Shown piece after piece: positions 12,538-54,111 of a DNA stretch of 64,000 nt. The DNA is from Eledone cirrhosa (Eukaryota). The stretch spans positions 214,210,001 through 214,274,000 of the forward strand of contig OZ024741.1 in assembly GCA_964016885.1 (NCBI GenBank). Direction: 5' to 3'. How positions within the stretch are numbered: the stretch's first letter is position 1; the number at the start of each line of letters is the position of its first letter. The translations under genes were made by a program, and so were the position numbers. The notes beneath the pieces were generated by a model. The model saw only the letters and a list, made by a program, of their open reading frames with translations. It searched no databases and was not told the DNA's origin.

Positions 12538-12590
<53 letters not shown>

Positions 12591-12709
12591 TACTTTGGGA
12601 GGGTCATGTTGCCAAGAAGAAACACACGCACCAGTTGCTTTCACTTCAATTTATTATAATAAATTTATAAATTTAGGAATTTATAAATTTCCGGTTGGTT
12701 GGTTGGTTC

Positions 12710-12740
<31 letters not shown>

Positions 12741-14274
12741 GAATATAGACATAGAATATTCGAAAATATTCTGTATGTTTATAATAAACATTTTGAAGAC
12801 CTAATCGCTATAGAATAGAATACGTCACGTATTACAATTAGATTCTCGATAAAAGCAAGGGAAGTAATCTACGCGTTTCATTCTTGTTAGAAATCATCAG
12901 GACTACATATCCAGTGCTTTTATCGAGAATGACACAGCTAGAGACTTATAGAATACTTAGCTGTGTACAGGAACTGGTTTGAAAGAGCGGTTGCCGGTCC
13001 GGCAGAAATTAGAAATTGGAATAAATGCTCTGAAATAGCGATATATATGTGAATATAGACATAGAATATTCGAAAATATTCTGTATGTTTATAATAAACA
13101 TTTTGAAGACCTAATCGCTATAGAATAGAATACGTCACGTATTACAATTAGATTCTCGATAAAAGCAAGGGAAGTAATCTACGCGTTTCATTCTTGTTAG
13201 AAATCATCAGGACTACATATCCAGTGCTTTTATCGAGAATGACACAGCTAGAGACTTATAGAATACTTAGCTGTGTACAGGAACTGGTTTGAAAGAGCGG
13301 TTGCCGGTCCGGCAGAAATTAGAAATTGGAATAAATGCTCTGAAATAGCGATATATATGTGAATATAGACATAGAATATTCGAAAATATTCTGTATGTTT
13401 ATAATAAACATTTTGAAGACCTAATCGCTATAGAATAGAATACGTCACGTATTACAATTAGATTCTCGATAAAAGCAAGGGAAGTAATCTACGCGTTTCA
13501 TTCTTGTTAGAAATCATCAGGACTACATATCCAGTGCTTTTATCGAGAATGACACAGCTAGAGACTTATAGAATACTTAGCTGTGTACAGGAACTGGTTT
13601 GAAAGAGCGGTTGCCGGTCCGGCAGAAATTAGAAATTGGAATAAATGCTCTGAAATAGCGATATATATGTGAATATAGACATAGAATATTCGAAAATATT
13701 CTGTATGTTTATAATAAACATTTTGAAGACCTAATCGCTATAGAATAGAATACGTCACGTATTACAATTAGATTCTCGATAAAAGCAAGGGAAGTAATCT
13801 ACGCGTTTCATTCTTGTTAGAAATCATCAGGACTACATATCCAGTGCTTTTATCGAGAATGACACAGCTAGAGACTTATAGAATACTTAGCTGTGTACAG
13901 GAACTGGTTTGAAAGAGCGGTTGCCGGTACGGCAGAAATTAGAAATTGGAATAAATGCTCTGAAATAGCGATATATATGTGAATATAGACATAGAATATT
14001 CGAAAATATTCTGTATGTTTATAATAAACATTTTGAAGACCTAATCGCTATAGAATAGAATACGTCACGTATTACAATTAGATTCTCGATAAAAGCAAGG
14101 GAAGTAATCTACGCGTTTCATTCTTGTTAGAAATCATCAGGACTACATATCCAGTGCTTTTATCGAGAATGACACAGCTAGAGACTTATAGAATACTTAG
14201 CTGTGTACAGGAACTGGTTTGAAAGAGCGGTTGCCGGTCCGGCAGAAATTAGAAATTGGAATAAATGCTCTGAA

Positions 14275-14277
<3 letters not shown>
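12741..14277 (-). mobile_element. Tandem array of 5 x 310-bp units, each with a type I hammerhead (non-LTR retrozyme-like)
   Basis: Unit starts at 12741, 13051, 13361, 13671 and 13981; only one substitution seen (c>a at 13929); flanked by (TA)n on both sides. Confidence 0.9.
12842..12930 (-). ncRNA. Type I hammerhead ribozyme with extended stem I (repeated every 310 bp)
   Basis: Minus: attctcgataaaagca..gtagtc-CTGATGA-t-TTCT aaca AGAA-t-GAAA-cgcgTA^gattac..tgcttttatcgagaat; palindromic stem III ACGCGT; predicted cut between 12869 and 12870. Confidence 0.9.
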
Positions 14278-14358
<81 letters not shown>

Positions 14359-33905: not shown

Positions 33906-34000
<95 letters not shown>

Positions 34001-34151
34001 ATACTTTGGGAGGGTCATGTTGCCAATAAGAAACACACGCACCAGTTGCTTTCACTTCAATTTAATTTATTATATATTTATAAATTTACAAATTTATAAA
34101 TTTCTGGTTGGTTGGTTGGTTCCACAACCAGATAGTTGTTTATATATATAT

Positions 34152-34196
34152 AGTCATAGTTCTTTCGTCACACACTCTGTGACCTCTTCAGTGACT
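34152..34196 (-). ncRNA. Type I hammerhead motif (family A)
   Basis: Minus: agtca-CTGAAGA-g-GTCACA gagtg TGTGAC-GAAA-gaacTA^tgact. Confidence 0.75.
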
Positions 34197-34280
34197 GGGG
34201 ATTTCTTTCTTCGTTTCTGTGCCTTTCCTTTCTTCTATCCTACGCCAGAAAAATGGCGTATATATATATATATATATATA

Positions 34281-42167: not shown

Positions 42168-45100
42168 CTACAGAACAATGTAGAGAGAAGGCCCATTTAC
42201 ACGGGCCATTCTCGCTTCTTTCACCCACCTTTCATAAAACTGTCTGGGACCAAGCACTTCTCTCTCCATCCTGATTCTTCTTCCGAAGTGGTATCGGAAG
42301 AAGTAAACCAGGTGATGGCCGGAGAGAAAGTCACCCGACCTCAGACCTTTCAGGCGCGTCCACCACACAACCTCTTTCATCATGGCTATTACGCACAGAA
42401 AGACCGCCTCTGCTTCATTTCTGAAGGGAGGAGGCGGCTTGATGTTCACCACAGACTCGGCGGTTAATCGAATCGGCGCCACACGCGACAGCAGTCGTTC
42501 GACGTAGCCCCACAGATCGGCAACGCCCGGGCAGTGTACCAGTGCATGCGCAACGGTTTCCTCGTCGCGCACGCATCTGGGACAGATCTTTTTCGCGGGA
42601 TCCCTGCCCGGGCGCCCGTGTCTGTAGAGCTTTTCTCGAACGGGCAGAGCCCCCCGGTAACACTGCCAGGCTAGGGACCTCTGGAAGTTGTCCATGGGTC
42701 CCGGGCCGAAAGTTCTACCGAACAGGCTGGCCAGTTCGTCCTCCTCCATGCCTAGCGACTCTCCAAGGGTGTCGTCGCCCCTGCTAGCCACCAACCCTCT
42801 ATAGAATGTCGAGGTGGATTCTCCACTGACAGTCGGGTCCGCTTGCCAGATAGCCGTGAGCGCCTGGGCACACTCAGTGTGCCAGTTGCCCAGTTTTCTC
42901 GGTCTTTGCTTCACCCAGGATTGCAGTTCGGTGAGCGAGACGAGCTGTGGGAAGGCTCGCCTCACAAACGGGGCCCACACCGGCTGACCGTTGAGGAATA
43001 CCTGTAGATGCCGTAGCCTCAATGCGTGCCTACGCATCAACAGCCACGGCATACCCAGCCCTCCTTTCGAAGGGTGCTGGCAGCAGATGGATCTCCTCAC
43101 CATGGGAGGCCGCTTCTTCCAGAGGAACTGGAAGAGCATGCGTTCCATGATGGTGAGCTTTTCCTTGGGGCAAGGCACGACGGTCAGGCGGTAGTAGATG
43201 ACGGACGCTATGTAAGCGTTCGTCACCTCCGCCGGACCTTTCAGTGATAGTTTGCACTTGGCCCACTTCTGGGTCAGCGCAAACACCCTGCTCGTCACCT
43301 CGCCCCAATTCTTCTCCTCCTGGAGGTCCGGTCCGAACCAGACCCCGAGCAGCTTCACCGGGCCCTCCGTCCACCGCCCGACGACACCGTCTAACGGCAT
43401 CGGTTTGCCCCTCCACGTTCCGAGTTGCAAACCGACTGACTTGTCCTGGTTCAGCTTAGCCCCCGTCAGCCTTTCGTATTCCTCCAGTAGGGTGGCGATC
43501 GCCCCGATTTCCGAGGCGTCCGCCACCATTACTGTTACGTCGTCGGCATAGGCCGAGACCGCTTTGTGCAATCCCGGTTCCAGGGGTATGCCCCGCAGCA
43601 ACTCCAACTTCCGCAGCAGTGGCTCGAGAGTCAATACGTACAGAAGGGAGGAGAGGGGGCACCCCTGTCTGATGGATCGGGTGATTTGAAACGGCTCCGA
43701 GAGGTAGCCGTTTACTTTAATCCTAGAGTAGATGTTGCCACTGTGCATGGCAGAAATCCAGCCCCTGAAAACGGGTCCGAAGCCCGCCGCCGCTAGCACC
43801 GCATCCAGGTAACCATGGTCGACCCTATCGAACGCCTTAGATTGATCCAAGTTGATCAGGGCCCCACCAAAGCCGGGTTCGTAGCCAACCCTCTCTATGA
43901 TGTATCGCATGAGGTGGAGGTTGTCGTGAATGGACCTGGACGGGATAGCGCATGTCTGCGCGTCTCCCACCAAACCACCCACCACAAGCGCCAACCTCTT
44001 CGCCAACACCTTGGCCAAAATCTGTAACTCTGCATTCAGCAGAGTTATGGGCCTAAAGTTACTTAAGTCGTCCCCCTTGCTCTCGTCCTTCCTCACTAGC
44101 GTGACCACGCCCTTGGTCACAGAACAGGGAATTCTCCCGTTCTGTTGCCAGTTGCAATAGACAGCCTCGAGGAGTTCGGAGAACAAGACCGGCATAGCTA
44201 AATAAAGTTCGTATGGTAGACCATCGAGACCCGGGGATTTGCGTCTGCTGCATTGGCTGAGCGCTTCCCCGATTTCAGTGGCTGTGATTGGCCCTTCGCA
44301 GCACTCCGCTTCGCCGCTCGAAAGACGCGGTAGACCGTCGAGGTATGGACCGAAGTCCACATCCCCGTCCGGCCCCCCGCCACCTCCGAACAGTCGAGCA
44401 AAGTGCCTTTGAAAGATCTCGCACATTCGCTCAGGTTCAAGGATCACCCGTCCATCCTGGTCTCGCAAAGACCGAATGGTGGATTTAATCCCACTCTTGG
44501 CTTCTGTCACGCGGGCCCAGCTAACAGCTTTGGTCCCCTCGTTTCCTAAAGCACGTATTTTACTTCGGACAACGCAGCCTTCGTGCTTCGCGTCAAAGAA
44601 CTGGCTCAATGCCGTTCTCGTCGCTAACACTCTGGCTACGTCTCCGCTCCTAATCGCCTCTTCTAGTTTATCTGTTAACTCCCTTTCCCTCCTATTTCTA
44701 TTCGCCGCTAGTTCCTTACTGTAACCTATCGAACTTACTCTAATCTCTCTCTTTAGAGATATCCACCACCTACTGTTGACGATCGCTCCCGTCAACCGCA
44801 TCTTAACTAAGCTACTAATCCGGTTTCTGTAATATTTCTTTGTCGGTAAGGACAAGTTCATCTTCCAGTAACCGGGACCCTGTCTATGCGTTCTATCAAG
44901 GTTGACCACGCAGGTCACTAATTTGTGATCTGAATAGCCAACCATGATCAGTTCTGGACAACTAAATACGTCCCTATCCTTACTCCTAACCAAAAACCTA
45001 TCTAGGTACGATCTAGATTGTCCACTGCGGTTTGCCCAGGTCCAGGTTGGCGCAGTTGGACAATCTAGTCGAAATCTATCGACCAGGTCGAATCGATCGA

Positions 45101-45596
45101 GTAACCCCTTGAGGCTGCTACACCCCCCTCTATCGGGACATGCCCCTGCATAGTCCCAACGCGCATCTAGGATTCCATTCCAGTCCCCCACTAAAAGCAG
45201 GGAACGCGACGTTCCTAGAAAAGTCTCCAGACGTTGGAAGAAGTCGGCTCTCTCCGCCCCGAAGGGAGCATAAAGACCGACCAGTCTGAAAGCCCCGCCT
45301 TCACCACCTCCGACGTCCAGCACCAGTAATCGACCCCCCGGGTCCGAGTGAACAATCTGTACGTCGAGAGTCAGACGTTTATCCAGCAGTACGGCAACTC
45401 CCCCCCCGCCTCCGGGTTGACAGAGAGATGCGTGCATCTCAAAGTCATCGAAGGCGGGCGCCAGCTGTCTCACGCTGCTGATCCGACTCTCGCAAACAAC
45501 CATCACATCTATACTTTGTGACCTGAGGTCACTTAGAAGCTTTGCTTGCTTCCAAGCTGAGCTCAGGCCACGCGCGTTCAAACAGCCAACTCTCAA
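42168..45596 (-). CDS. ORF2: APE endonuclease + reverse transcriptase + C-terminal Cys/His (zf-RVT-like) domain
   Basis: LNARGL, VCES, GDWN, SYLDRF, SDH (EN); KSPGLDG, FRPITLLN, DQSKAFDRVDH, IRQGCPLS, YADD, KLLGV (RT); CPRC..ET..HALVHC. The annotated start is TTG, not ATG. Confidence 0.95.
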   Translation of the reverse strand: MRVGCLNARGLSSAWKQAKLLSDLRSQSIDVMVVCESRISSVRQLAPAFDDFEMHASLCQPGGGGGVAVLLDKRLTLDVQIVHSDPGGRLLVLDVGGGEGGAFRLVGLYAPFGAERADFFQRLETFLGTSRSLLLVGDWNGILDARWDYAGACPDRGGCSSLKGLLDRFDLVDRFRLDCPTAPTWTWANRSGQSRSYLDRFLVRSKDRDVFSCPELIMVGYSDHKLVTCVVNLDRTHRQGPGYWKMNLSLPTKKYYRNRISSLVKMRLTGAIVNSRWWISLKREIRVSSIGYSKELAANRNRRERELTDKLEEAIRSGDVARVLATRTALSQFFDAKHEGCVVRSKIRALGNEGTKAVSWARVTEAKSGIKSTIRSLRDQDGRVILEPERMCEIFQRHFARLFGGGGGPDGDVDFGPYLDGLPRLSSGEAECCEGPITATEIGEALSQCSRRKSPGLDGLPYELYLAMPVLFSELLEAVYCNWQQNGRIPCSVTKGVVTLVRKDESKGDDLSNFRPITLLNAELQILAKVLAKRLALVVGGLVGDAQTCAIPSRSIHDNLHLMRYIIERVGYEPGFGGALINLDQSKAFDRVDHGYLDAVLAAAGFGPVFRGWISAMHSGNIYSRIKVNGYLSEPFQITRSIRQGCPLSSLLYVLTLEPLLRKLELLRGIPLEPGLHKAVSAYADDVTVMVADASEIGAIATLLEEYERLTGAKLNQDKSVGLQLGTWRGKPMPLDGVVGRWTEGPVKLLGVWFGPDLQEEKNWGEVTSRVFALTQKWAKCKLSLKGPAEVTNAYIASVIYYRLTVVPCPKEKLTIMERMLFQFLWKKRPPMVRRSICCQHPSKGGLGMPWLLMRRHALRLRHLQVFLNGQPVWAPFVRRAFPQLVSLTELQSWVKQRPRKLGNWHTECAQALTAIWQADPTVSGESTSTFYRGLVASRGDDTLGESLGMEEDELASLFGRTFGPGPMDNFQRSLAWQCYRGALPVREKLYRHGRPGRDPAKKICPRCVRDEETVAHALVHCPGVADLWGYVERLLSRVAPIRLTAESVVNIKPPPPFRNEAEAVFLCVIAMMKEVVWWTRLKGLRSGDFLSGHHLVYFFRYHFGRRIRMEREVLGPRQFYERWVKEARMARVNGPSLYIVL

Positions 45597-45601
45597 TTGA
45601 T

Positions 45602-47437
45602 CTATTTTGGTGTTGAAAGTGAAGAAAGAAAAGCACTTACCTCTCCGGGTTGCGTAATTTCCATGGCATCAGGTGTGTTGGGTGGAGGGATGTTTTGTGG
45701 TGGTGTGGGGGTACACGTGTGTGGTGGGGTTGGGGTATTTGGAGTTGTGTCAGGGAGAGGGGCGGTTATGGGGAAATCTTTCAAGAGGACGCGATTCAAC
45801 GGTTTTAAACAGGGGGGGCTCACGTCCCGTCTAAATTGTTCTTTTAAGGAACGATAAAGGTCCAGAGGGACCTTTATCATTTTTAAATGGGTGAAGTTCT
45901 CTGTTGAGATAAAGTTTGGCCCTTCGGTCTGCACCATAGGGTTATTGTTTATTAATTTAACCAGTTTTTTGTTTTCTTTATTTATATATGTGTATTGCAA
46001 CGTCTTTTTTTGTGATGCTGTCAATGTTTCGGAGAGGGGAGGCGCAGATTTATTTTTGTTTGTTGAGGGTGGGGTGTTTTTGATTGGAGTTGGTGTTTGT
46101 GTGTGGGTTATTTGTGGTGTGCTGGGTGTGTGTTTTCTTTTTTTTCTTTTAACTTGTCTGAAGGCTTCTCCTCCTTCTTCTTCAGAAGTTGGGGGAAACT
46201 CTTCAGCGCTAGGTGGGAGGGACGTGTTGTGTGGTTGTTTTTTTTTTGCGGGAGGGGTAGATTTGTTACTGTTTTTTTTATTATTTGTTTGGAATGGGTT
46301 TTGTGGTGGTGGTGGTGGTAATGTTTGTGTCGTGCTTGTGGTTGGTAATGGTGGTGGTGATGTTTGTGTTGTGGTTGGTGGTGGTGATTTTTGTGTCGTG
46401 CTTGTGTTTGGTGCTGGTGGTGGTGATGTTTGTGTTGTGTTTGTGGTTGGTGGTGTCTGTATTTTGTTTGCTGTGTGTGGTATTAGTGTATTTTTGGAGG
46501 TGGGTGGTGCTGGTGTACTGTTTGTGGTGGGTGTGGGCAATAGTCCTTTTTGGGGGATACGTTTCGGGCAGTTAGCCTTAACGTGTCCCCTTTCCATGCA
46601 TAAATAGCATGCTGGTCTTCTCCCCTCTACAATTATGTCTATTGGGGTAAGGTCATCCAGCCAGATGCGATCCGGGATTTGTGCTATTCTTTCGGGCCTC
46701 ATTTGGACTAGTATGTCGAGGCCCATTCCCAGGAACGCATCTCCAGTTGCCTTCCCCATTGACAGCATAGTGTCTTCGCCCATATCAATGAAGCCAGCAA
46801 TAGCCCACCAGAAGTCCATTGTGGGCAGCATTGTTTTTACTTTTATTCTCTGTGTTCTTCTACCCATGTAGGAGGGATAGAAGCTATATGTTGTCGACGA
46901 GAGTGGGCTTAGGGAAAGCTGAACCGCCGTTTCTTTGTCTCTTGTTAGGACCGAAATGCTGCCATAGAGTCGGTCCTTTCGTATGAAGAGAATATTCTTC
47001 ATATAGTCTTTTAGGACTAACTCTATTTCCATTTGGCTGGGCTGTGCTGGCTTTCTTGACTGGTTTAGTATAGTTCTGTATATAACTGTGTTTTCTGCTC
47101 TGGCTTTCTTGAATTCTGGGGGGGAGTTAATGGAAAACATTCCGTTCTCCCCCAAAACAATATGTTTCTTTGCTTCGGCCAGTTTTTCTCTGGCGGCAGT
47201 TAGGTCAATTGGTGTGTATGTAATGGATTGCTTTGTTTTCTGGGCGAAAGTTGCCCTGTCGTTATTTGTATTATTTTCTGTTTGTTTGTTTTCTGTTTGC
47301 TCATTTTCCTTAACATTTGTTTTTTCATTTTGTTTGTTTGTTTCAATGTCTAATTTTGTTGTAATTATTTTTTGTTCTTCAGACTTGGGGGGCGTGGCAG
47401 AGCTAATGGCAGACATGTCTGCCATCTTTTCCGCCAT
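45602..47437 (-). CDS. ORF1: nucleic-acid-binding protein with CCHC zinc knuckle and P/T-rich linker
   Basis: CYLCMERGHVKANC knuckle and KRKKRK basic patch; first ATG at 47437 (the ORF track starts at upstream TTG 47464). Confidence 0.85.
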   Translation of the reverse strand: MAEKMADMSAISSATPPKSEEQKIITTKLDIETNKQNEKTNVKENEQTENKQTENNTNNDRATFAQKTKQSITYTPIDLTAAREKLAEAKKHIVLGENGMFSINSPPEFKKARAENTVIYRTILNQSRKPAQPSQMEIELVLKDYMKNILFIRKDRLYGSISVLTRDKETAVQLSLSPLSSTTYSFYPSYMGRRTQRIKVKTMLPTMDFWWAIAGFIDMGEDTMLSMGKATGDAFLGMGLDILVQMRPERIAQIPDRIWLDDLTPIDIIVEGRRPACYLCMERGHVKANCPKRIPQKGLLPTPTTNSTPAPPTSKNTLIPHTANKIQTPPTTNTTQTSPPPAPNTSTTQKSPPPTTTQTSPPPLPTTSTTQTLPPPPPQNPFQTNNKKNSNKSTPPAKKKQPHNTSLPPSAEEFPPTSEEEGGEAFRQVKRKKRKHTPSTPQITHTQTPTPIKNTPPSTNKNKSAPPLSETLTASQKKTLQYTYINKENKKLVKLINNNPMVQTEGPNFISTENFTHLKMIKVPLDLYRSLKEQFRRDVSPPCLKPLNRVLLKDFPITAPLPDTTPNTPTPPHTCTPTPPQNIPPPNTPDAMEITQPGEVSAFLSSLSTPK

Positions 47438-47899
47438 GCTGCCAAGAAAGAAATTTTTCGGCAAAAATAGATATTTATTTTACCCCCTAAAAAGGGGGTA
47501 AATGCAAAAATGTTTCCCTAAATAACAGGGGTTAGTGTTCCAAATGTGTTGCACTAAAAAATTTATCCGGTACTTACAATAGTAAGGGTAAATCCCGATG
47601 GAATAGCGGAGCCGATGCGAAGCGTGTCTTACTCTATCAAGATAGATAGATAGATAGATAGATAGATAAATTTCTATTTATTTGCCACGAGGGTACAAAA
47701 GAAAGGGACATTTACACAGTGGGGGAGTTTACATAAATCGAGTAAAGAAAAAGGAATAACAATAATAATATAACAATAAAAAGTCCTCAAAAGGGAGGGG
47801 GCGTGTTGGGGATTGCACATACCCCCGAAAAGTGTGCAACTCTTTTCGCGGGGGAAGCCCAGAGAGGAGGCGCTCCCCCTTTCCTCTTCACTTCTTCAC

Positions 47900-50800
47900 C
47901 TACAGAACAATGTAGAGAGAAGGCCCATTTACACGGGCCATTCTCGCTTCTTTCACCCACCTTTCATAAAACTGTCTGGGACCAAGCACTTCTCTCTCCA
48001 TCCTGATTCTTCTTCCGAAGTGGTATCGGAAGAAGTAAACCAGGTGATGGCCGGAGAGAAAGTCACCCGACCTCAGACCTTTCAGGCGCGTCCACCACAC
48101 AACCTCTTTCATCATGGCTATTACGCACAGAAAGACCGCCTCTGCTTCATTTCTGAAGGGAGGGGGCGGCTTGAAGTTCACCACAGACTCGGCGGTTAAT
48201 CGAATCGGCGCCACACGCGACAGCAGTCGTTCGACGTAGCCCCACAGATCGGCAACGCCCGGGCAGTGTACCAGTGCATGCGCAACGGTTTCCTCGTCGC
48301 GCACGCATCTGGGACAGATCTTTTTCGCGGGATCCCTGCCCGGGCGCCCGTGTCTGTAGAGCTTTTCTCGAACGGGCAGAGCCCCCCGGTAACACTGCCA
48401 GGCTAGGGACCTCTGGAAGTTGTCCATGGGTCCCGGGCCGAAAGTTCTACCGAACAGGCTGGCCAGTTCGTCCTCCTCCATGCCTAGCGACTCTCCAAGG
48501 GTGTCGTCGCCCCTGCTAGCCACCAACCCTCTATAGAATGTCGAGGTGGATTCTCCACTGACAGTCGGGTCCGCTTGCCAGATAGCCGTGAGCGCCTGGG
48601 CACATTCAGTGTGCCAGTTGCCCAGTTTTCTCGGACTTTGCTTCACCCAGGATTGCAGTTCGGTGAGCGAGACGAGCTGTGGGAAGGCTCGCCTCACAAA
48701 CGGGGCCCACACCGGCTGACCGTTGAGGAATACCTGTAGATGCCGTAGCCTCAATGCGTGCCTACGCATCAACAGCCACGGCATACCCAGCCCTCCTTTC
48801 GAAGGGTGCTGGCAGCAGATGGATCTCCTCACCATGGGAGGCCGCTTCTTCCAGAGGAACTGGAAGAGCATGCGTTCCATGATGGTGAGCTTTTCCTTGG
48901 GGCAAGGCACGACGGTCAGGCGGTAGTAGATGACGGACGCTATGTAAGCGTTCGTCACCTCCGCCCGACCTTTCAGTGATAGTTTGCACTTGGCCCACTT
49001 CTGGGTCAGCGCAAACACCCTGCTCGTCACCTCGCCCCAATTCTTCTCCACCTGGAGGTCCGGTCCGAACCAGACCCCGAGCAGCTTCACCGGGCCCTCC
49101 GTCCACCGCCCGACGACACCGTCTAACGGCATCGGTTTGCCCCTCCACGTTCCGAGTTGCAAACCGACTGACTTGTCCTGGTTCAGCTTAGCCCCGTCAG
49201 CCTTTCGTATTCCTCCAGTAGGGTGGCGATCGCCCCGATTTCCGAGGCGTCCGCCACCATTACTGTTACGTCGTCGGCATAGGCCGAGACCGCTTTGTGC
49301 AATCCCGGTTCCAGGGGTATGCCCCGCAGCAACTCCAACTTCCGCAGCAGTGGCTCGCGAGTCAATACGTACAGAAGGGAGGAGAGGGGGCACCCCTGTC
49401 TGATGGATCGGATGATTTGAAACGGCTCCGAGAGGTAGCCGTTTACTTTAATCCTAGAGTAGATGTTGCCACTGTGCATGGCAGAAATCCAGCCCCTGAA
49501 AACGGGTCCGAAGCCCGCCGCCGCTAGCACCGCATCCAGGTAACCATGGTCGACCCTATCGAACGCCTTAGATTGATCCAAGTTGATCAGGGCCCCACCA
49601 AAGCCGGGTTCGTAGCCAACCCTCTCTATGATGTATCGCATGAGGTGGAGGTTGTCGTGAATGGACCTGGACGGGATAGCGCATGTCTGCGCGTCTCCCA
49701 CCAAACCACCCACCACAAGCGCCAACCTCTTCGCCAACACCTTGGCCAAAATCTGTAACTCTGCATTCAGCAGAGTTATGGGCCTAAAGTTACTTAAGTC
49801 GTCCCCCTTGCTCTCGTCCTTCCTCACTAGCGTGACCACGCCCTTGGTCACAGAACAGGGAATTCTCCCGTTCTGTTGCCAGTTGCAATAGACAGCCTCG
49901 AGGAGTTCGGAGAACAAGACCGGCATAGCTAAATAAAGTTCGTATGGTAGACCATCGAGACCCTGGGATTTGCGTCTGCTGCATTGGCTGAGCGCTTCCC
50001 CGATTTCAGTGGCTGTGATTGGCCTTTCGCAGCACTCCGCTTCGCCGCTCGAAAGACGCGGTAGACCGTCGAGGTATGGACCGAAGTCCACATCCCCGTC
50101 CGGCCCCCCGCCACCTCCGAACAGTCGAGCAAAGTGCCTTTGAAAGGTCTCGCACATTCGCTCAGGTTCAAGGATCACCCGTCCATCCTGGTCTCGCAAA
50201 GACCGAATGGTGGATTTAATCCCACTCTTGGCTTCTGTCACGCGGGCCCAGCTAACAGCTTTGGTCCCCTCGTTTCCTAAAGCACGTATTTTACTTCGGA
50301 CAACGCAGCCTTCGTGCTTCGCGTCAAAGAACTGGCTCAATGCCGTTCTCGTCGCTAACACTCTGGCTACGTCTCCGCTCCTAATCGCCTCTTCTAGTTT
50401 ATCTGTTAACTCCCTTTCCCTCCTATTTCTATTCGCCGCTAGTTCCTTACTGTAACCTATCGAACTTACTCTAATCTCTCTCTTTAGAGATATCCACCAC
50501 CTACTGTTGACGATCGCTCCCGTCAACCGCATCTTAACTAAGCTACTAATCCGGTTTCTGTAATCTTTCTTTGTCGGTAAGGACAAGTTCATCTTCCAGT
50601 AACCGGGACCCTGTCTATGCGTTCTATCAAGGTTGACCACGCAGGTCACTAATTTGTGATCTGAATAGCCAACCATGATCAGTTCTGGACAACTAAATAC
50701 GTCCCTATCCTTACTCCTAACCAAAAACCTATCTAGGTACGATCTAGATTGTCCACTGCGGTTTGCCCAGGTCCAGGTTGGCGCAGTTGGACAATCTAGT

Positions 50801-51330
50801 CGAAATCTATCGACCAGGTCGAATCGATCGAGTAACCCCTTGAGGCTGCTACACCCCCCTCTATCGGGACATACCCCTGCATAGTCCCAACGCGCATCTA
50901 GGATTCCATTCCAGTCCCCCACTAAAAGCAGGGAACGCGACGTTCCTAGAAAAGTCTCCAGACGTTGGAAGAAGTCGGCTCTTTCCGCCCCGAAGGGAGC
51001 ATAAAGACCGACCAGTCTGAAAGCCCCGCCTTCACCGCCTCCGACGTCCAGCACCAGTAATCGACCCCCCGGGTCCGAGTGAACAATCTGTACGTCGAGA
51101 GTCAGACGTTTATCCAGCAGTACGGCAACTCCCCCCCCCCCGCCTCCGGGTTGACAGAGAGATGCGTGCATCTCAAAGTCATCGAAGGCGGGCGCCAGCT
51201 GTCTCACGCTGCTGATCCGACTCTCGCAAACAACCATCACATCTATACTTTGTGACCTGAGGTCACTTAGAAGCTTTGCTTGCTTCCAAGCTGAGCCCAG
51301 GCCACGCGCGTTCAAACAGCCAACTCTCAA
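47900..51330 (-). pseudogene. ORF2 of copy 2, split by a 1-bp deletion in a C homopolymer at ~49192-49195
   Basis: gcccccg in copy 1 vs gccccg in copy 2; ORFs 49183-51330 and 47900-49393 join to give the copy-1 protein. Confidence 0.85.
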
Positions 51331-51335
51331 TTGAT

Positions 51336-53168
51336 CTATTTTGGTGTTGAAAGTGAAGAAAGAAAAGCACTTACCTCTCCGGGTTGCGTAATTTCCATGG
51401 CATCAGGTGTGTTGGGTGGAGGGATGTTTTGTGGTGGTGTGGGGGTACACGTGTGTGGTGGGGTTGGGGTATTTGGAGTTGTGTCAGGGAGAGGGGCGGT
51501 TATGGGGAAATATTTCAAGAGGACGCGATTCAACGGTTTTAAACAGGGGGGGCTCACGTCCCGTCTAAATTGTTCTTTTAAGGAACGATAAAGGTCCAGA
51601 GGGACCTTTATCATTTTTAAATGGGTGAAGTTCTCTGTTGAGATAAAGTTTGGCCCTTCGGTCTGCACCATAGGGTTATTGTTTATTAATTTAACCAGTT
51701 TTTTGTTTTCTTTATTTATATATGTGTATTGCAACGTCTTTTTTTGTGATGCTGTCAATGTTTCGGAGAGGGGAGGCGCAGATTTATTTTTGTTTGTTGA
51801 GGGTGGGGTGTTTTTGATTGGAGTTGGTGTTTGTGTGTGGGTTATTTGTGGTGTGCTGGGTGTGTGTTTTCTTTTTTTTCTTTTAACTTGTCTGAAGGCT
51901 TCTCCTCCTTCTTCTTCAGAAGTTGGGGGAAACTCTTCAGCGCTAGGTGGGAGGGACGTGTTGTGTGGTTGTTGTTTTTTTGCGGGAGGGGTAGATTTGT
52001 TACTGTTTTTTTTATTATTTGTTTGGAATGGGTTTTGTGGTGGTGGTGGTAATGTTTGTGTCGTGCTTGTGGTTGGTGATGGTGGTGGTGATGTTTGTGT
52101 TGTGGTTGGTGGTGGTGATTTTTGTGTCGTGCTTGTGTTTGGTGCTGGTGGTGGTGATGTTTGTGTTGTGTTTGTGGTTGGTGGTGTCTGTATTTTGTTT
52201 GCTGTGTGTGGTATTAGTGTATTTTTGGAGGTGGGTGGTGTTGGTGTACTGTTTGTGGTGGGTGTGGGCAATAGTCCTTTTTGGGGGATACGTTTCGGGC
52301 AGTTAGCCTTAACGTGTCCCCTTTCCATGCATAAATAGCATGCTGGTCTTCTCCCCTCTACAATTATGTCTATTGGGGTAAGGTCATCCAGCCAGATGCG
52401 ATCCGGGATTTGTGCTATTCTTTCGGGCCTCATTTGGACTAGTATGTCGGGGCCCATTCCCAGGAACGCATCTCCAGTTGCCTTCCCCATTGACAGCATT
52501 GTGTCTTCGCCCATATCAATGAAGCCAGCAATAGCCCACCAGAAGTCCATTGTGGGCAGCATTGTTTTTACTTTTACTCTCTGTGTTCTTCTACCCATGT
52601 AGGAGGGATAGAAGCTATATGTTGTCGACGAGAGTGGGCTTAGGGAAAGCTTCTCCGCCGTTTCTTTGTCTCTTGTTAGGACCGAAATGCTGCCATAGAG
52701 TCGGTCCTTTCGTATGAAGAGAATATTCTTCATATAGTCTTTTAGGACTAACTCTATTTCCATTTGGCTGGGCTGTGCTGGCTTTCTTGTCTGGTTCAGT
52801 ATAGTTCTGTAGAGAACTGTGTTTTCTGCTCTGGCTTTCTTGAATTCTGGGGGGGAGTTAATGGAAAACATTCCGTTCTCCCCCAAAACAATGTGTTTCT
52901 TTGCTTCGGCCAGTTTTTCTCTGGCGGCAGTTAGGTCAATTGGTGTGTATGTAATGGATTGTTTTGTTTTCTGGGCGAAAGTTGCCCTGTCGTTATTTGT
53001 ATTATTTTCTGTTTGTTTGTTTTCTGTTTGCTCATTTTCCTTAACATTTGTTTTTTCATTTTGTTTGTTTGTTTCAATGTCTAATTTTGTTGTAATTATT
53101 TTTTGTTCTTCAGACTTGGGGGGCGTGGCAGAGCTAATGGCAGACATGTCTGCCATCTTTTCCGCCAT
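51336..53168 (-). CDS. ORF1 of copy 2 (CCHC zinc knuckle)
   Basis: Intact; near-identical to 45602-47437. Confidence 0.85.
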   Translation of the reverse strand: MAEKMADMSAISSATPPKSEEQKIITTKLDIETNKQNEKTNVKENEQTENKQTENNTNNDRATFAQKTKQSITYTPIDLTAAREKLAEAKKHIVLGENGMFSINSPPEFKKARAENTVLYRTILNQTRKPAQPSQMEIELVLKDYMKNILFIRKDRLYGSISVLTRDKETAEKLSLSPLSSTTYSFYPSYMGRRTQRVKVKTMLPTMDFWWAIAGFIDMGEDTMLSMGKATGDAFLGMGPDILVQMRPERIAQIPDRIWLDDLTPIDIIVEGRRPACYLCMERGHVKANCPKRIPQKGLLPTPTTNSTPTPPTSKNTLIPHTANKIQTPPTTNTTQTSPPPAPNTSTTQKSPPPTTTQTSPPPSPTTSTTQTLPPPPQNPFQTNNKKNSNKSTPPAKKQQPHNTSLPPSAEEFPPTSEEEGGEAFRQVKRKKRKHTPSTPQITHTQTPTPIKNTPPSTNKNKSAPPLSETLTASQKKTLQYTYINKENKKLVKLINNNPMVQTEGPNFISTENFTHLKMIKVPLDLYRSLKEQFRRDVSPPCLKPLNRVLLKYFPITAPLPDTTPNTPTPPHTCTPTPPQNIPPPNTPDAMEITQPGEVSAFLSSLSTPK

Positions 53169-54111
53169 GCTGCCAAGAAAGAAATTTTTCGGCAAAAATA
53201 GATATTTATTTTACCCCCTAAAAAGGGGGTAAATGCAAAAATGTTTCCCTAAATAACAGGGGTTAGTGTTCCAAATGTGTTGCACTAAAAAATTTATCCG
53301 GTACTTACAATAGTAAGGGTAAATCCCGATGGAATAGCGGAGCCGATGCGAAGCGTGTCTTACTCTATCAAGATAGATAGATAGATAGATAGAGAGAGAG
53401 ATAGATAGATATGTTTCCGATAAAATAAAGCACTAGTAGTAACACACGGGGGTCGATTTAATCGATATTCCCCTCCTCTAAAATGGTTGGAATTATGCCT
53501 AAATCAGGCACTATTATTTTCACTGGTCCACTAAAACGATGATAGTTCAACACCCAGCACAACCAAGCCCCGCGGGGAGGAGTGGTTGTTTCAGCTCGTC
53601 TCCCTCGCCGTGTCCTCCGGGTCAATGCAATCTCCATCCTGTCGGACGTGATCCAAAGACGGAGGGCAAGTTAGCTGGTGGTGTAGGGCAAGTTAGCTGG
53701 TGGTGGAGGATACTCTTTCGAACGTCACTGCTACAACTAACGTACGTATTAAAACAAACTTTTCTTTACTAGTATTGAATGTATTTTCAAATAAAATTCG
53801 TTTGAATGTTCTAGCTTTTTTCTTTTCATACCGAGTATTAGAGATTATTGACCCGACCACGTATATTTACATTTATACACCCATGAACATCAACCAACTT
53901 ATAATGTAAGCCGCTAGTTATCTGGCTGTCTGCCTGGTTTGTCTGGCTTATGTTTCTGGTGCGATGTCACTTGGATAGCCCAAATTATGGAATGACAAAT
54001 ATTTTAATAAACCCCAAACACACAGCGATGTGTGATGTCGGTCCATGACACATGCATTGTTGTTTGTTTTGGTTAAGTCTTATAATCCCCTTTCAACCTT
54101 GTATGTCTGTG

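What the first reader, a model, noticed from the sequence alone, without database searches (positions are those of the whole stretch)
12715..14295. Array ends map to the unit's internal ATATATAT motif, not to the ribozyme cut site
Seen: unit junctions read tgaaatagcg-ATATATAT-gt-gaatatagac. The left end is (TA)n-gaatatagac and the right end is tgaaata-(TA)n, so both ends fall within ~13 nt of the internal TA motif, ~130 nt from the predicted cleavage site. Inference: a self-cleaved linear monomer would start at the cut site. A whole number of units phased on the TA motif fits rolling-circle reverse transcription of a circular RNA, primed by pairing of its AU motif with nicked genomic (TA)n. 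That would be an RNA-encoded microsatellite targeting guide.
Basis: inference. Interest (0 to 1): 0.75.

Follow-up and report, generated by a model that had tools for sequence, protein, structure and literature searches.

The report
Penelope-type ribozyme insertion, no RNA guide
This is one of about 2,000 insertions of a 310-letter repeat with a hammerhead self-cutting-RNA motif, likely pasted into TA microsatellites by a Penelope-type jumping-gene enzyme copying from two fixed start points; the internal AT run is not needed for targeting, because a sister repeat without it lands in the same places.

Summary
The local observation holds: five 310-bp hammerhead units (12741-14277) in (TA)n, both ends near the unit's ATATATAT. 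The generalisation fails. The left end is a true fixed start (2,021 such ends genome-wide). The right end is a chance truncation: only 19 ends fall at or in the motif. A second fixed start 26-43 nt away has no AU run, yet gives 1,741 ends, also in (TA)n. All 72 complete inverted insertions pair one start of each kind. Two starts, a tail at one end, an inverted arm and (TA)n bias are the published Penelope-like-element (PLE) signature. A 466-bp sister hammerhead family with no AT run over 5 nt has 2,878 fixed ends, about 93 of 100 in (TA)n. So the motif is at most a priming aid, not a guide. Ends avoid the cut site. Units within an insertion share one haplotype, including private variants, which favours rolling-circle copying of a monomer circle; this is inferred, with no RNA data.

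The parts
12741..14277 (-). Single-arm array of 4.96 copies of a 310-bp non-coding hammerhead unit (retrozyme insertion); the RNA strand is the minus strand
   Evidence: 16,582 exact 22-mer copies in the genome
12717..12740 (.). Left (AT)n target tract; its 3' end is the inferred primer for reverse transcription
   Evidence: sequence; same junction type at 2,021 places
12740..12741 (-). Start site 1 (RNA-3' end of the insertion), of the type that lacks G309 of the internal motif
14275..14277 (-). Far (RNA-5') truncation at unit position 297, with 3-nt ATA microhomology to the target
14278..14294 (.). Right (TA)n tract, followed by (TG)n at 14294-14356
13041..13048 (-). Internal ATATATAT motif, unit positions 301-308 (also at 13351, 13661, 13971); borders start site 1; possible priming aid, not required for (TA)n targeting
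13318..13331 (-). Start site 2 window (unit positions 268-281), shown for unit 2; not used in this copy but gives 1,741 ends elsewhere; the stretch between sites 1 and 2 corresponds to the PLE tail
13160..13225 (-). Type I hammerhead (core CUGAUGA / GAAA / GUA, very short palindromic stem III), one per unit; predicted cuts at 12869|12870, 13179|13180, 13489|13490, 13799|13800, 14109|14110
   Evidence: cleavage not tested
12587..12715 (-). Separate neighbour: 5'-truncated 3' end of a Penelope-like pseudo-LTR in the same TA tract (not part of the array)
   Evidence: by eye, the same sequence follows a GIY-YIG ORF and a hammerhead core in L100

Best explanation
The array is one 5'-truncated, single-arm insertion of a young non-coding hammerhead repeat (animal non-LTR retrozyme), likely written into a (TA)n tract by the protein of a Penelope-like retroelement. 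Shown: about 2,000 dispersed insertions; two fixed outer-end windows 26-43 nt apart (site 1 at unit 309-6, site 2 at 268-281); about 98% of listed ends in (TA)n; one end of each kind in every complete inverted insertion; scattered far ends; one haplotype per insertion. Inferred: the PLE endonuclease nicks (TA)n on both strands about 12-15 nt apart. Each nick primes reverse transcription at an internal, protein- or structure-defined window of the RNA, with 1-4 nt of TA microhomology choosing the exact base. The enzyme probably rolls round a ribozyme-made monomer circle. The two cDNA arms join back to back, or, as here, one arm joins the other side of the target by microhomology. The AU run may ease priming at site 1 but does not select the target.
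For: Counts of ends: 2,021 at site 1 and 1,741 at site 2. 72 of 72 complete inverted insertions are site 1 + site 2, none homotypic; 4 more had one arm cut by the fetched edge. 48 of the 72 were found from one end only. By eye, 98 of the first 100 site-1 ends and 97 of 98 true site-2 ends abut (TA)n-type DNA, against 8.2% (TA)>=5 in flanks. Target duplications of 12-15 nt are seen where the target is not pure TA (L045 15 nt, L038 12 nt, L064 12 nt partly ambiguous; L036 12 nt by eye). Far ends: 4 of 152 inner ends lie within 3 nt of the cut and 5 of 152 in the motif. Haplotypes: 47 in 92 loci; both arms share the majority haplotype in 45 of 50; 11 of 67 loci with 4 or more units carry a variant private in this sample and fixed in all units; within-locus variants are 92 singletons against 12 shared; 2 of 92 singletons lie at the cut junction, 2.1 expected. 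Control: the 466-bp family has no AT run over 5 nt and 2,878 fixed ends, about 93 of 100 in (TA)n. Literature: two internal RT starts 30-40 nt apart without homology, equal to the tail, with AT-rich cleavage (PMC11167929); inverted 5'-truncated copy, tail on one end only, (TA)n bias (bioRxiv 2021.04.23.441226).
Against: No autonomous PLE with a terminus similar to this unit was found in the fetched loci, so the partner is unidentified. No RNA data show expression, cleavage or circles. L097 carries the same variant in the first full unit of both arms only (BAAA|BAA), and L059, L082, L121 and L122 are mosaic; this fits a linear multimer template, template switching or later conversion. Site 1 does sit exactly at the AU motif, 29 of 85 site-1 ends match perfect pairing, the motif is kept as (AT)5-8 in the 65%-identical family B, and single-arm insertions start more often at site 1 than at site 2 (15 vs 5; two of the 15 have a tiny second arm). 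Assembly polishing could flatten differences within arrays.
Confidence: 0.72

Rival explanations
1. One reading: the AU run in the circular RNA pairs with nicked (TA)n and acts as an RNA-encoded microsatellite targeting guide; arrays are whole numbers of units phased on the motif.
For: Site 1 borders the motif. The motif is kept and longer in family B. 29 of 85 ends fit perfect pairing and 45 fit 10-nt pairing with one penultimate mismatch. Site 2 could be used only after site 1 has anchored the complex.
Against: The 466-bp family has no such run and targets (TA)n. All 5 site-2-only insertions start in (TA)n. Starts slide to unit positions 2-6 or sit in degenerate or non-TA targets (L045, L036). 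At most 19 far ends lie at the motif, against at least 2,021 insertions. PAc initiates without homology (PMC11167929).
Confidence: 0.07
2. Same PLE two-site priming, but the template is a long uncleaved linear multimer transcribed from an existing array, not a circle.
For: Mirrored variant in both arms of L097; mosaics in L059, L082, L121, L122. In PAc, unprocessed RNA is the main substrate and ribozyme cleavage is not needed in vitro (PMC11167929).
Against: Private variants fixed in up to 21 units across both arms need a monomer bottleneck. Arms reach 21-24 units. Local expansion would leave shared variants, but 92 of 104 are singletons. There is no pile-up of far ends at the cut site.
Confidence: 0.22
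3. A short insertion later expanded in place by unequal crossover or slippage, as proposed for vertebrate retrozymes (Li et al. 2026 preprint).
For: A few arrays show variants shared by several units (L059, L121).
Against: 92 singleton against 12 shared within-locus variants; both inverted arms are long and of one haplotype; target duplications and fixed ends mark single insertion events.
Confidence: 0.05

Closest known systems
Animal non-LTR retrozymes (Cervera and de la Pena 2020, PMC7229834, passages and Discussion read; Li, Clavereau, Pollet 2026, bioRxiv 10.64898/2026.07.22.740005, parts 1-3 of 5 read)
   Same: 150-450 bp low-GC non-coding tandem units, one type I hammerhead each with a short stem III; PLE proposed as mobiliser; copying of circular RNA into tandem cDNA proposed.
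   Different: Those texts do not describe insertion ends. 'Inverted', 'rolling' and 'octopus' have 0 occurrences in the PMC7229834 main text; its supplements were not read. Here the insertions show two fixed starts, strict site 1 + site 2 inverted arms and (TA)n targeting. Li et al. favour local amplification.
Penelope-like elements: PAc/Poseidon (Frangieh et al. 2024, PMC11167929, parts 1-2 of 4 read) and general PLE/Naiad architecture (Craig et al. 2021, bioRxiv 10.1101/2021.04.23.441226, passages read)
   Same: Two internal RT starts 30-40 nt apart (the tail), both strands nicked and extended, AT-rich or (TA)n targets, inverted 5'-truncated copy, tail at one end only, type I hammerhead.
   Different: No ORF; the unit is repeated up to more than 20 times per arm. 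Site 1 borders an AU run, whereas PAc starts in an AC-rich stem-loop without homology. The autonomous partner is not identified.
Homology-primed TPRT at repeats (Athena telomeric reverse complements, as cited in Craig et al.; L1 twin priming and CR1 3' microsatellites, recalled, no call)
   Same: Primer-template pairing at a repeat; twin priming gives back-to-back arms.
   Different: Here the second start is fixed rather than random, and extended pairing is dispensable (466-bp family, site 2).

Membership tests
Animal non-LTR retrozyme | Tandem non-coding repeats of 150-450 bp, GC under 50% | tested here: met
   310 bp, GC about 34%
Animal non-LTR retrozyme | Type I hammerhead in every unit | tested here: met
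   core and stems present; Rfam score below gathering; commonest variants fall in the loop, at N7 or keep pairs (read by hand)
Animal non-LTR retrozyme | Self-cleavage and circular RNA in vivo | not testable with these tools
   needs bench work or RNA reads; see Tried and rejected
Animal non-LTR retrozyme | Dispersed copies with target duplications longer than 4 bp | tested here: met
   about 2,000 loci; 12-15 nt where measurable (3-4 clear cases among 72 examined)
PLE-mobilised element | 30-40 bp tail at one end only, from two RT starts | tested here: met
   26-43 nt spacing, mode about 35; 72 of 72 heterotypic
PLE-mobilised element | Inverted 5'-truncated copy and variable 5' truncation | tested here: met
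   76 inverted and 20 single-arm insertions in a sample mostly chosen by end pattern; scattered inner ends
PLE-mobilised element | Sequence similarity to the pLTR of an autonomous PLE | tested here: inconclusive
   none in the fetched loci; the genome was not searched for it
Autonomous PLE | RT plus GIY-YIG ORF | tested here: not met
   no such ORF in the unit or attached to the array
RNA-guided microsatellite targeting (proposed) | AU run needed for (TA)n choice | tested here: not met
   466-bp family and site 2; comparative test, not a bench test
RNA-guided microsatellite targeting (proposed) | Both ends phased on the motif | tested here: not met
   at most 19 far ends against at least 2,021 insertions

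The most novel reading that the evidence does not exclude
A PLE protein dimer grips one 310-nt ribozyme circle at two sites about 35 nt apart, and its two RT centres, each primed by one strand of a staggered cut in (TA)n, roll round the same circle at once. These insertions would then be a genomic record of twin rolling-circle TPRT that explains both retrozyme arrays and the PLE tail-plus-inversion. The conserved AU run would be a priming aid that makes site 1 the more efficient start.
Probability: 0.5. Interest if true: 0.72.

Novelty: new variant of a known kind. Interest (0 to 1): 0.48.

Why it matters
How animal retrozymes get into DNA has been proposed (circular RNA plus a PLE enzyme) but is not shown in the papers I read, and the origin of the PLE tail-and-inversion is only partly explained. 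A young family with about 2,000 insertions, two mapped starts and a strict one-of-each rule gives a defined substrate for testing both. The more striking claim handed to me, an RNA-encoded targeting guide, does not survive the control, so the finding as worded is worth less than its first score.

Tried and rejected
A DNA search of the own genome with the unit returned nothing because common words are skipped; patterns were used instead. Rfam at gathering score found nothing in the window. The pattern for far ends inside the motif (165 hits) was confounded: none of 12 loci examined was this family, they were related older families; it was redone with a family-specific pattern. End positions for inner junctions were corrupted by the unit's own hairpin; BLAST coordinates were used instead. 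Sequencing runs: no RNA holder listed, which is no evidence on expression. Run X2 holds the repeat deeply, with loose ends at unit positions 270, 286 and 301, but may be the source sample, so it is not independent. Five other runs hold one low-depth contig each, and two raw DNA runs under a holder's organism label laid 0 reads; I read this as probable carry-over, not horizontal spread. An empty-site allele was not tested: the left flank is a repeat and the array is a long repeat. Absence of fixed variants in the 12 catalytic positions (0 of about 46 variant positions, about 1.8 expected, by hand) is not significant. No autonomous partner was found among ORFs in the fetched loci. Literature searches listed no paper whose title or abstract start concerns retrozyme insertion ends or a cephalopod retrozyme; the library lacks most subscription papers, and supplements were not read.

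Full report
1. The observation. The window holds five tandem 310-bp units from 12741 to 14277, identical but for one base, between (AT)n on the left and (TA)n-(TG)n on the right. Each unit carries a type I hammerhead on the minus strand: stem I GUAGUC/GAUUAC, core CUGAUGA and GAAA, a very short palindromic stem III and GUA before the cut. The Rfam HH9 match is weak (E 0.03) and the fold z-score is -4.8. I number the unit from GAATATAGAC = 1. The cut is at 129|130, ATATATAT is at 301-308, the left end at 310|1 and the right end at 297.

2. The family. A 22-mer of the unit occurs 16,582 times in the genome. I fetched the first 15 loci without regard to ends and 80 more chosen by an end pattern (68 with one end known, 12 with both). 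Most are not like the window: they are two arrays back to back. Both outer ends are the RNA-3' side of an arm and fall in two narrow windows, site 1 (309-6) and site 2 (268-281, mostly 275, 273, 270, 268). Patterns that do not require a TA flank count 2,021 site-1 ends and 1,741 site-2 ends. By eye, 98 of the first 100 site-1 ends and 97 of 98 true site-2 ends (2 listed rows were internal indels) abut (TA)n-type DNA, against 8.2% (TA)>=5 in flanking DNA. All 72 complete inverted insertions have one site-1 and one site-2 end; 4 more were cut by the fetched edge and 20 were single-arm (15 site 1, 5 site 2). Where the target is not pure TA, a 12-15 nt duplication is visible (L045, L038, L064; L036 by eye).

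3. The window's right end is a chance truncation. RNA-5' ends are scattered. Of 152 inner ends, 4 lie within 3 nt of the cut and 5 in 297-310; the histogram is uneven (p = 0.0014) but has no peak at either place. Single-arm far ends fall at 7, 29, 43, 92, 92, 94, 103, 103, 105, 236, 238, 250, 251, 267 and about 285-290, mostly at short TA microhomologies. The window-type end occurs 9 times in the genome. Of those, two are tail-only fragments and one is a tiny second arm, and one array starts at site 2. Ends inside the motif occur 10 times, one of them tail-only. That is under 1% of insertions and, by my estimate, about what uniform truncation of single-arm copies gives. Position 297 is one of 32 positions in the unit with 3 nt or more of TA microhomology.

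4. Is the AU run a guide? For: site 1 borders it, and family B (about 324 bp, 65% identical, UUGAUAA-type core, same two-ended layout) keeps it as (AT)5-8. Against, four points. (a) Compared with each locus's own internal motif, 45 of 85 site-1 ends lose G309, as the window's does; 29 keep it, as perfect pairing predicts; 2 are uninformative; 9 start further in or in a mismatched target. (b) Site 2 has no AU run, slides among 2-nt TA or AT microhomologies and is in (TA)n, also in all 5 site-2-only insertions. (c) A non-TA insertion (L045) still starts at positions 4 and 274. (d) A separate 466-bp hammerhead family, whose longest alternating AT run is 5 nt in the one unit measured, has 2,878 ends at one fixed site, about 93 of the first 100 running straight into (TA)n (loci). 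Target choice therefore does not need an AU guide. The motif may help priming at site 1.

5. Mechanism. Frangieh et al. (PMC11167929, parts 1-2 of 4 read) showed that a purified PLE protein nicks and extends both strands of AT-rich DNA. It starts reverse transcription at two internal RNA sites without homology to the target, and the 30-40 nt between them is the genomic tail. Craig et al. (passages) describe PLE insertions with an inverted 5'-truncated copy, a tail usually on one end only and (TA)n bias. The anatomy here matches point for point, so PLE-type target-primed reverse transcription is the likely route. This genome has RT and GIY-YIG ORFs with hammerhead-bearing termini ending in (TA)n, but none in my loci resembles this unit, so the partner is open.

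6. Circle or linear template. 92 loci hold 47 majority haplotypes, and two random loci match 6% of the time. Both arms share a haplotype in 45 of 50 loci. 11 of 67 loci carry a sample-private variant in every unit. Within-locus variants are 92 singletons against 12 shared, with no excess at the cut junction. This needs a monomer bottleneck with amplification at insertion, as rolling-circle copying gives, and it argues against later unequal crossover or sloppy jumping between cut monomers. L097 (same variant in the first unit of both arms) and four mosaic arrays point to multimer templates, switching or conversion in some cases. No RNA evidence was available. The circle-to-tandem-cDNA idea is already proposed in PMC7229834 (Discussion).

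7. Novelty and verdict. This is an animal non-LTR retrozyme with a PLE insertion signature. The two-start, one-of-each, inverted layout was not in the retrozyme texts I read, but earlier notes of this scan report it for the same family at other loci; these are not independent evidence. The reading specific to this finding, an RNA-encoded microsatellite guide with whole-unit phasing, fails its controls. Interest 0.48.

Noticed in passing
window 12587-12715 (-); related copies near 34000-34260 (-) and 2273 (-); L100 3700-4200: 3' end of a Penelope-like pseudo-LTR with a hammerhead core, following a GIY-YIG ORF in L100 (Pfam E 2e-4) and ending in (TA)n; a candidate class of helper element, with no similarity to the 310-bp unit found
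   Followed up: partly
window 42171-53210 (-): Two head-to-tail copies of a non-LTR retrotransposon: ORF1-like frames of about 625 aa, and a 1,166-aa APE + RT + zf-RVT frame in one copy; the second copy's ORF2 is in separate frames
   Followed up: partly
L135-L146, L045, L072 (family B); L040 4854-5232 and L145 (further relatives): Older relatives of the unit (65-75% identical, about 324 bp) with the same two start windows. Family B has a UUGAUAA core variant; the L040 and L145 relatives have a degenerate motif (ATGTATACAT-like) in place of ATATATAT
   Followed up: partly
L070 317-1900, L087 2180-3250: 466-bp hammerhead family with two ends about 65-70 nt apart and no AU run; 2,878 ends at one site
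   Followed up: yes
runs X1-X20: The unit is held by 20 runs under 17 organism labels; those laid, other than X2, hold one low-depth contig each; probably carry-over, not shown
   Followed up: partly
L111 near 2690: Far end with a stutter of a 10-nt piece of the motif region before (TA)n, suggesting repeated slippage at joining
   Followed up: no
window 4987, 5234, 30049, 33013, 55363: Further hammerhead-like cores of other repeat families (pattern scan)
   Followed up: no
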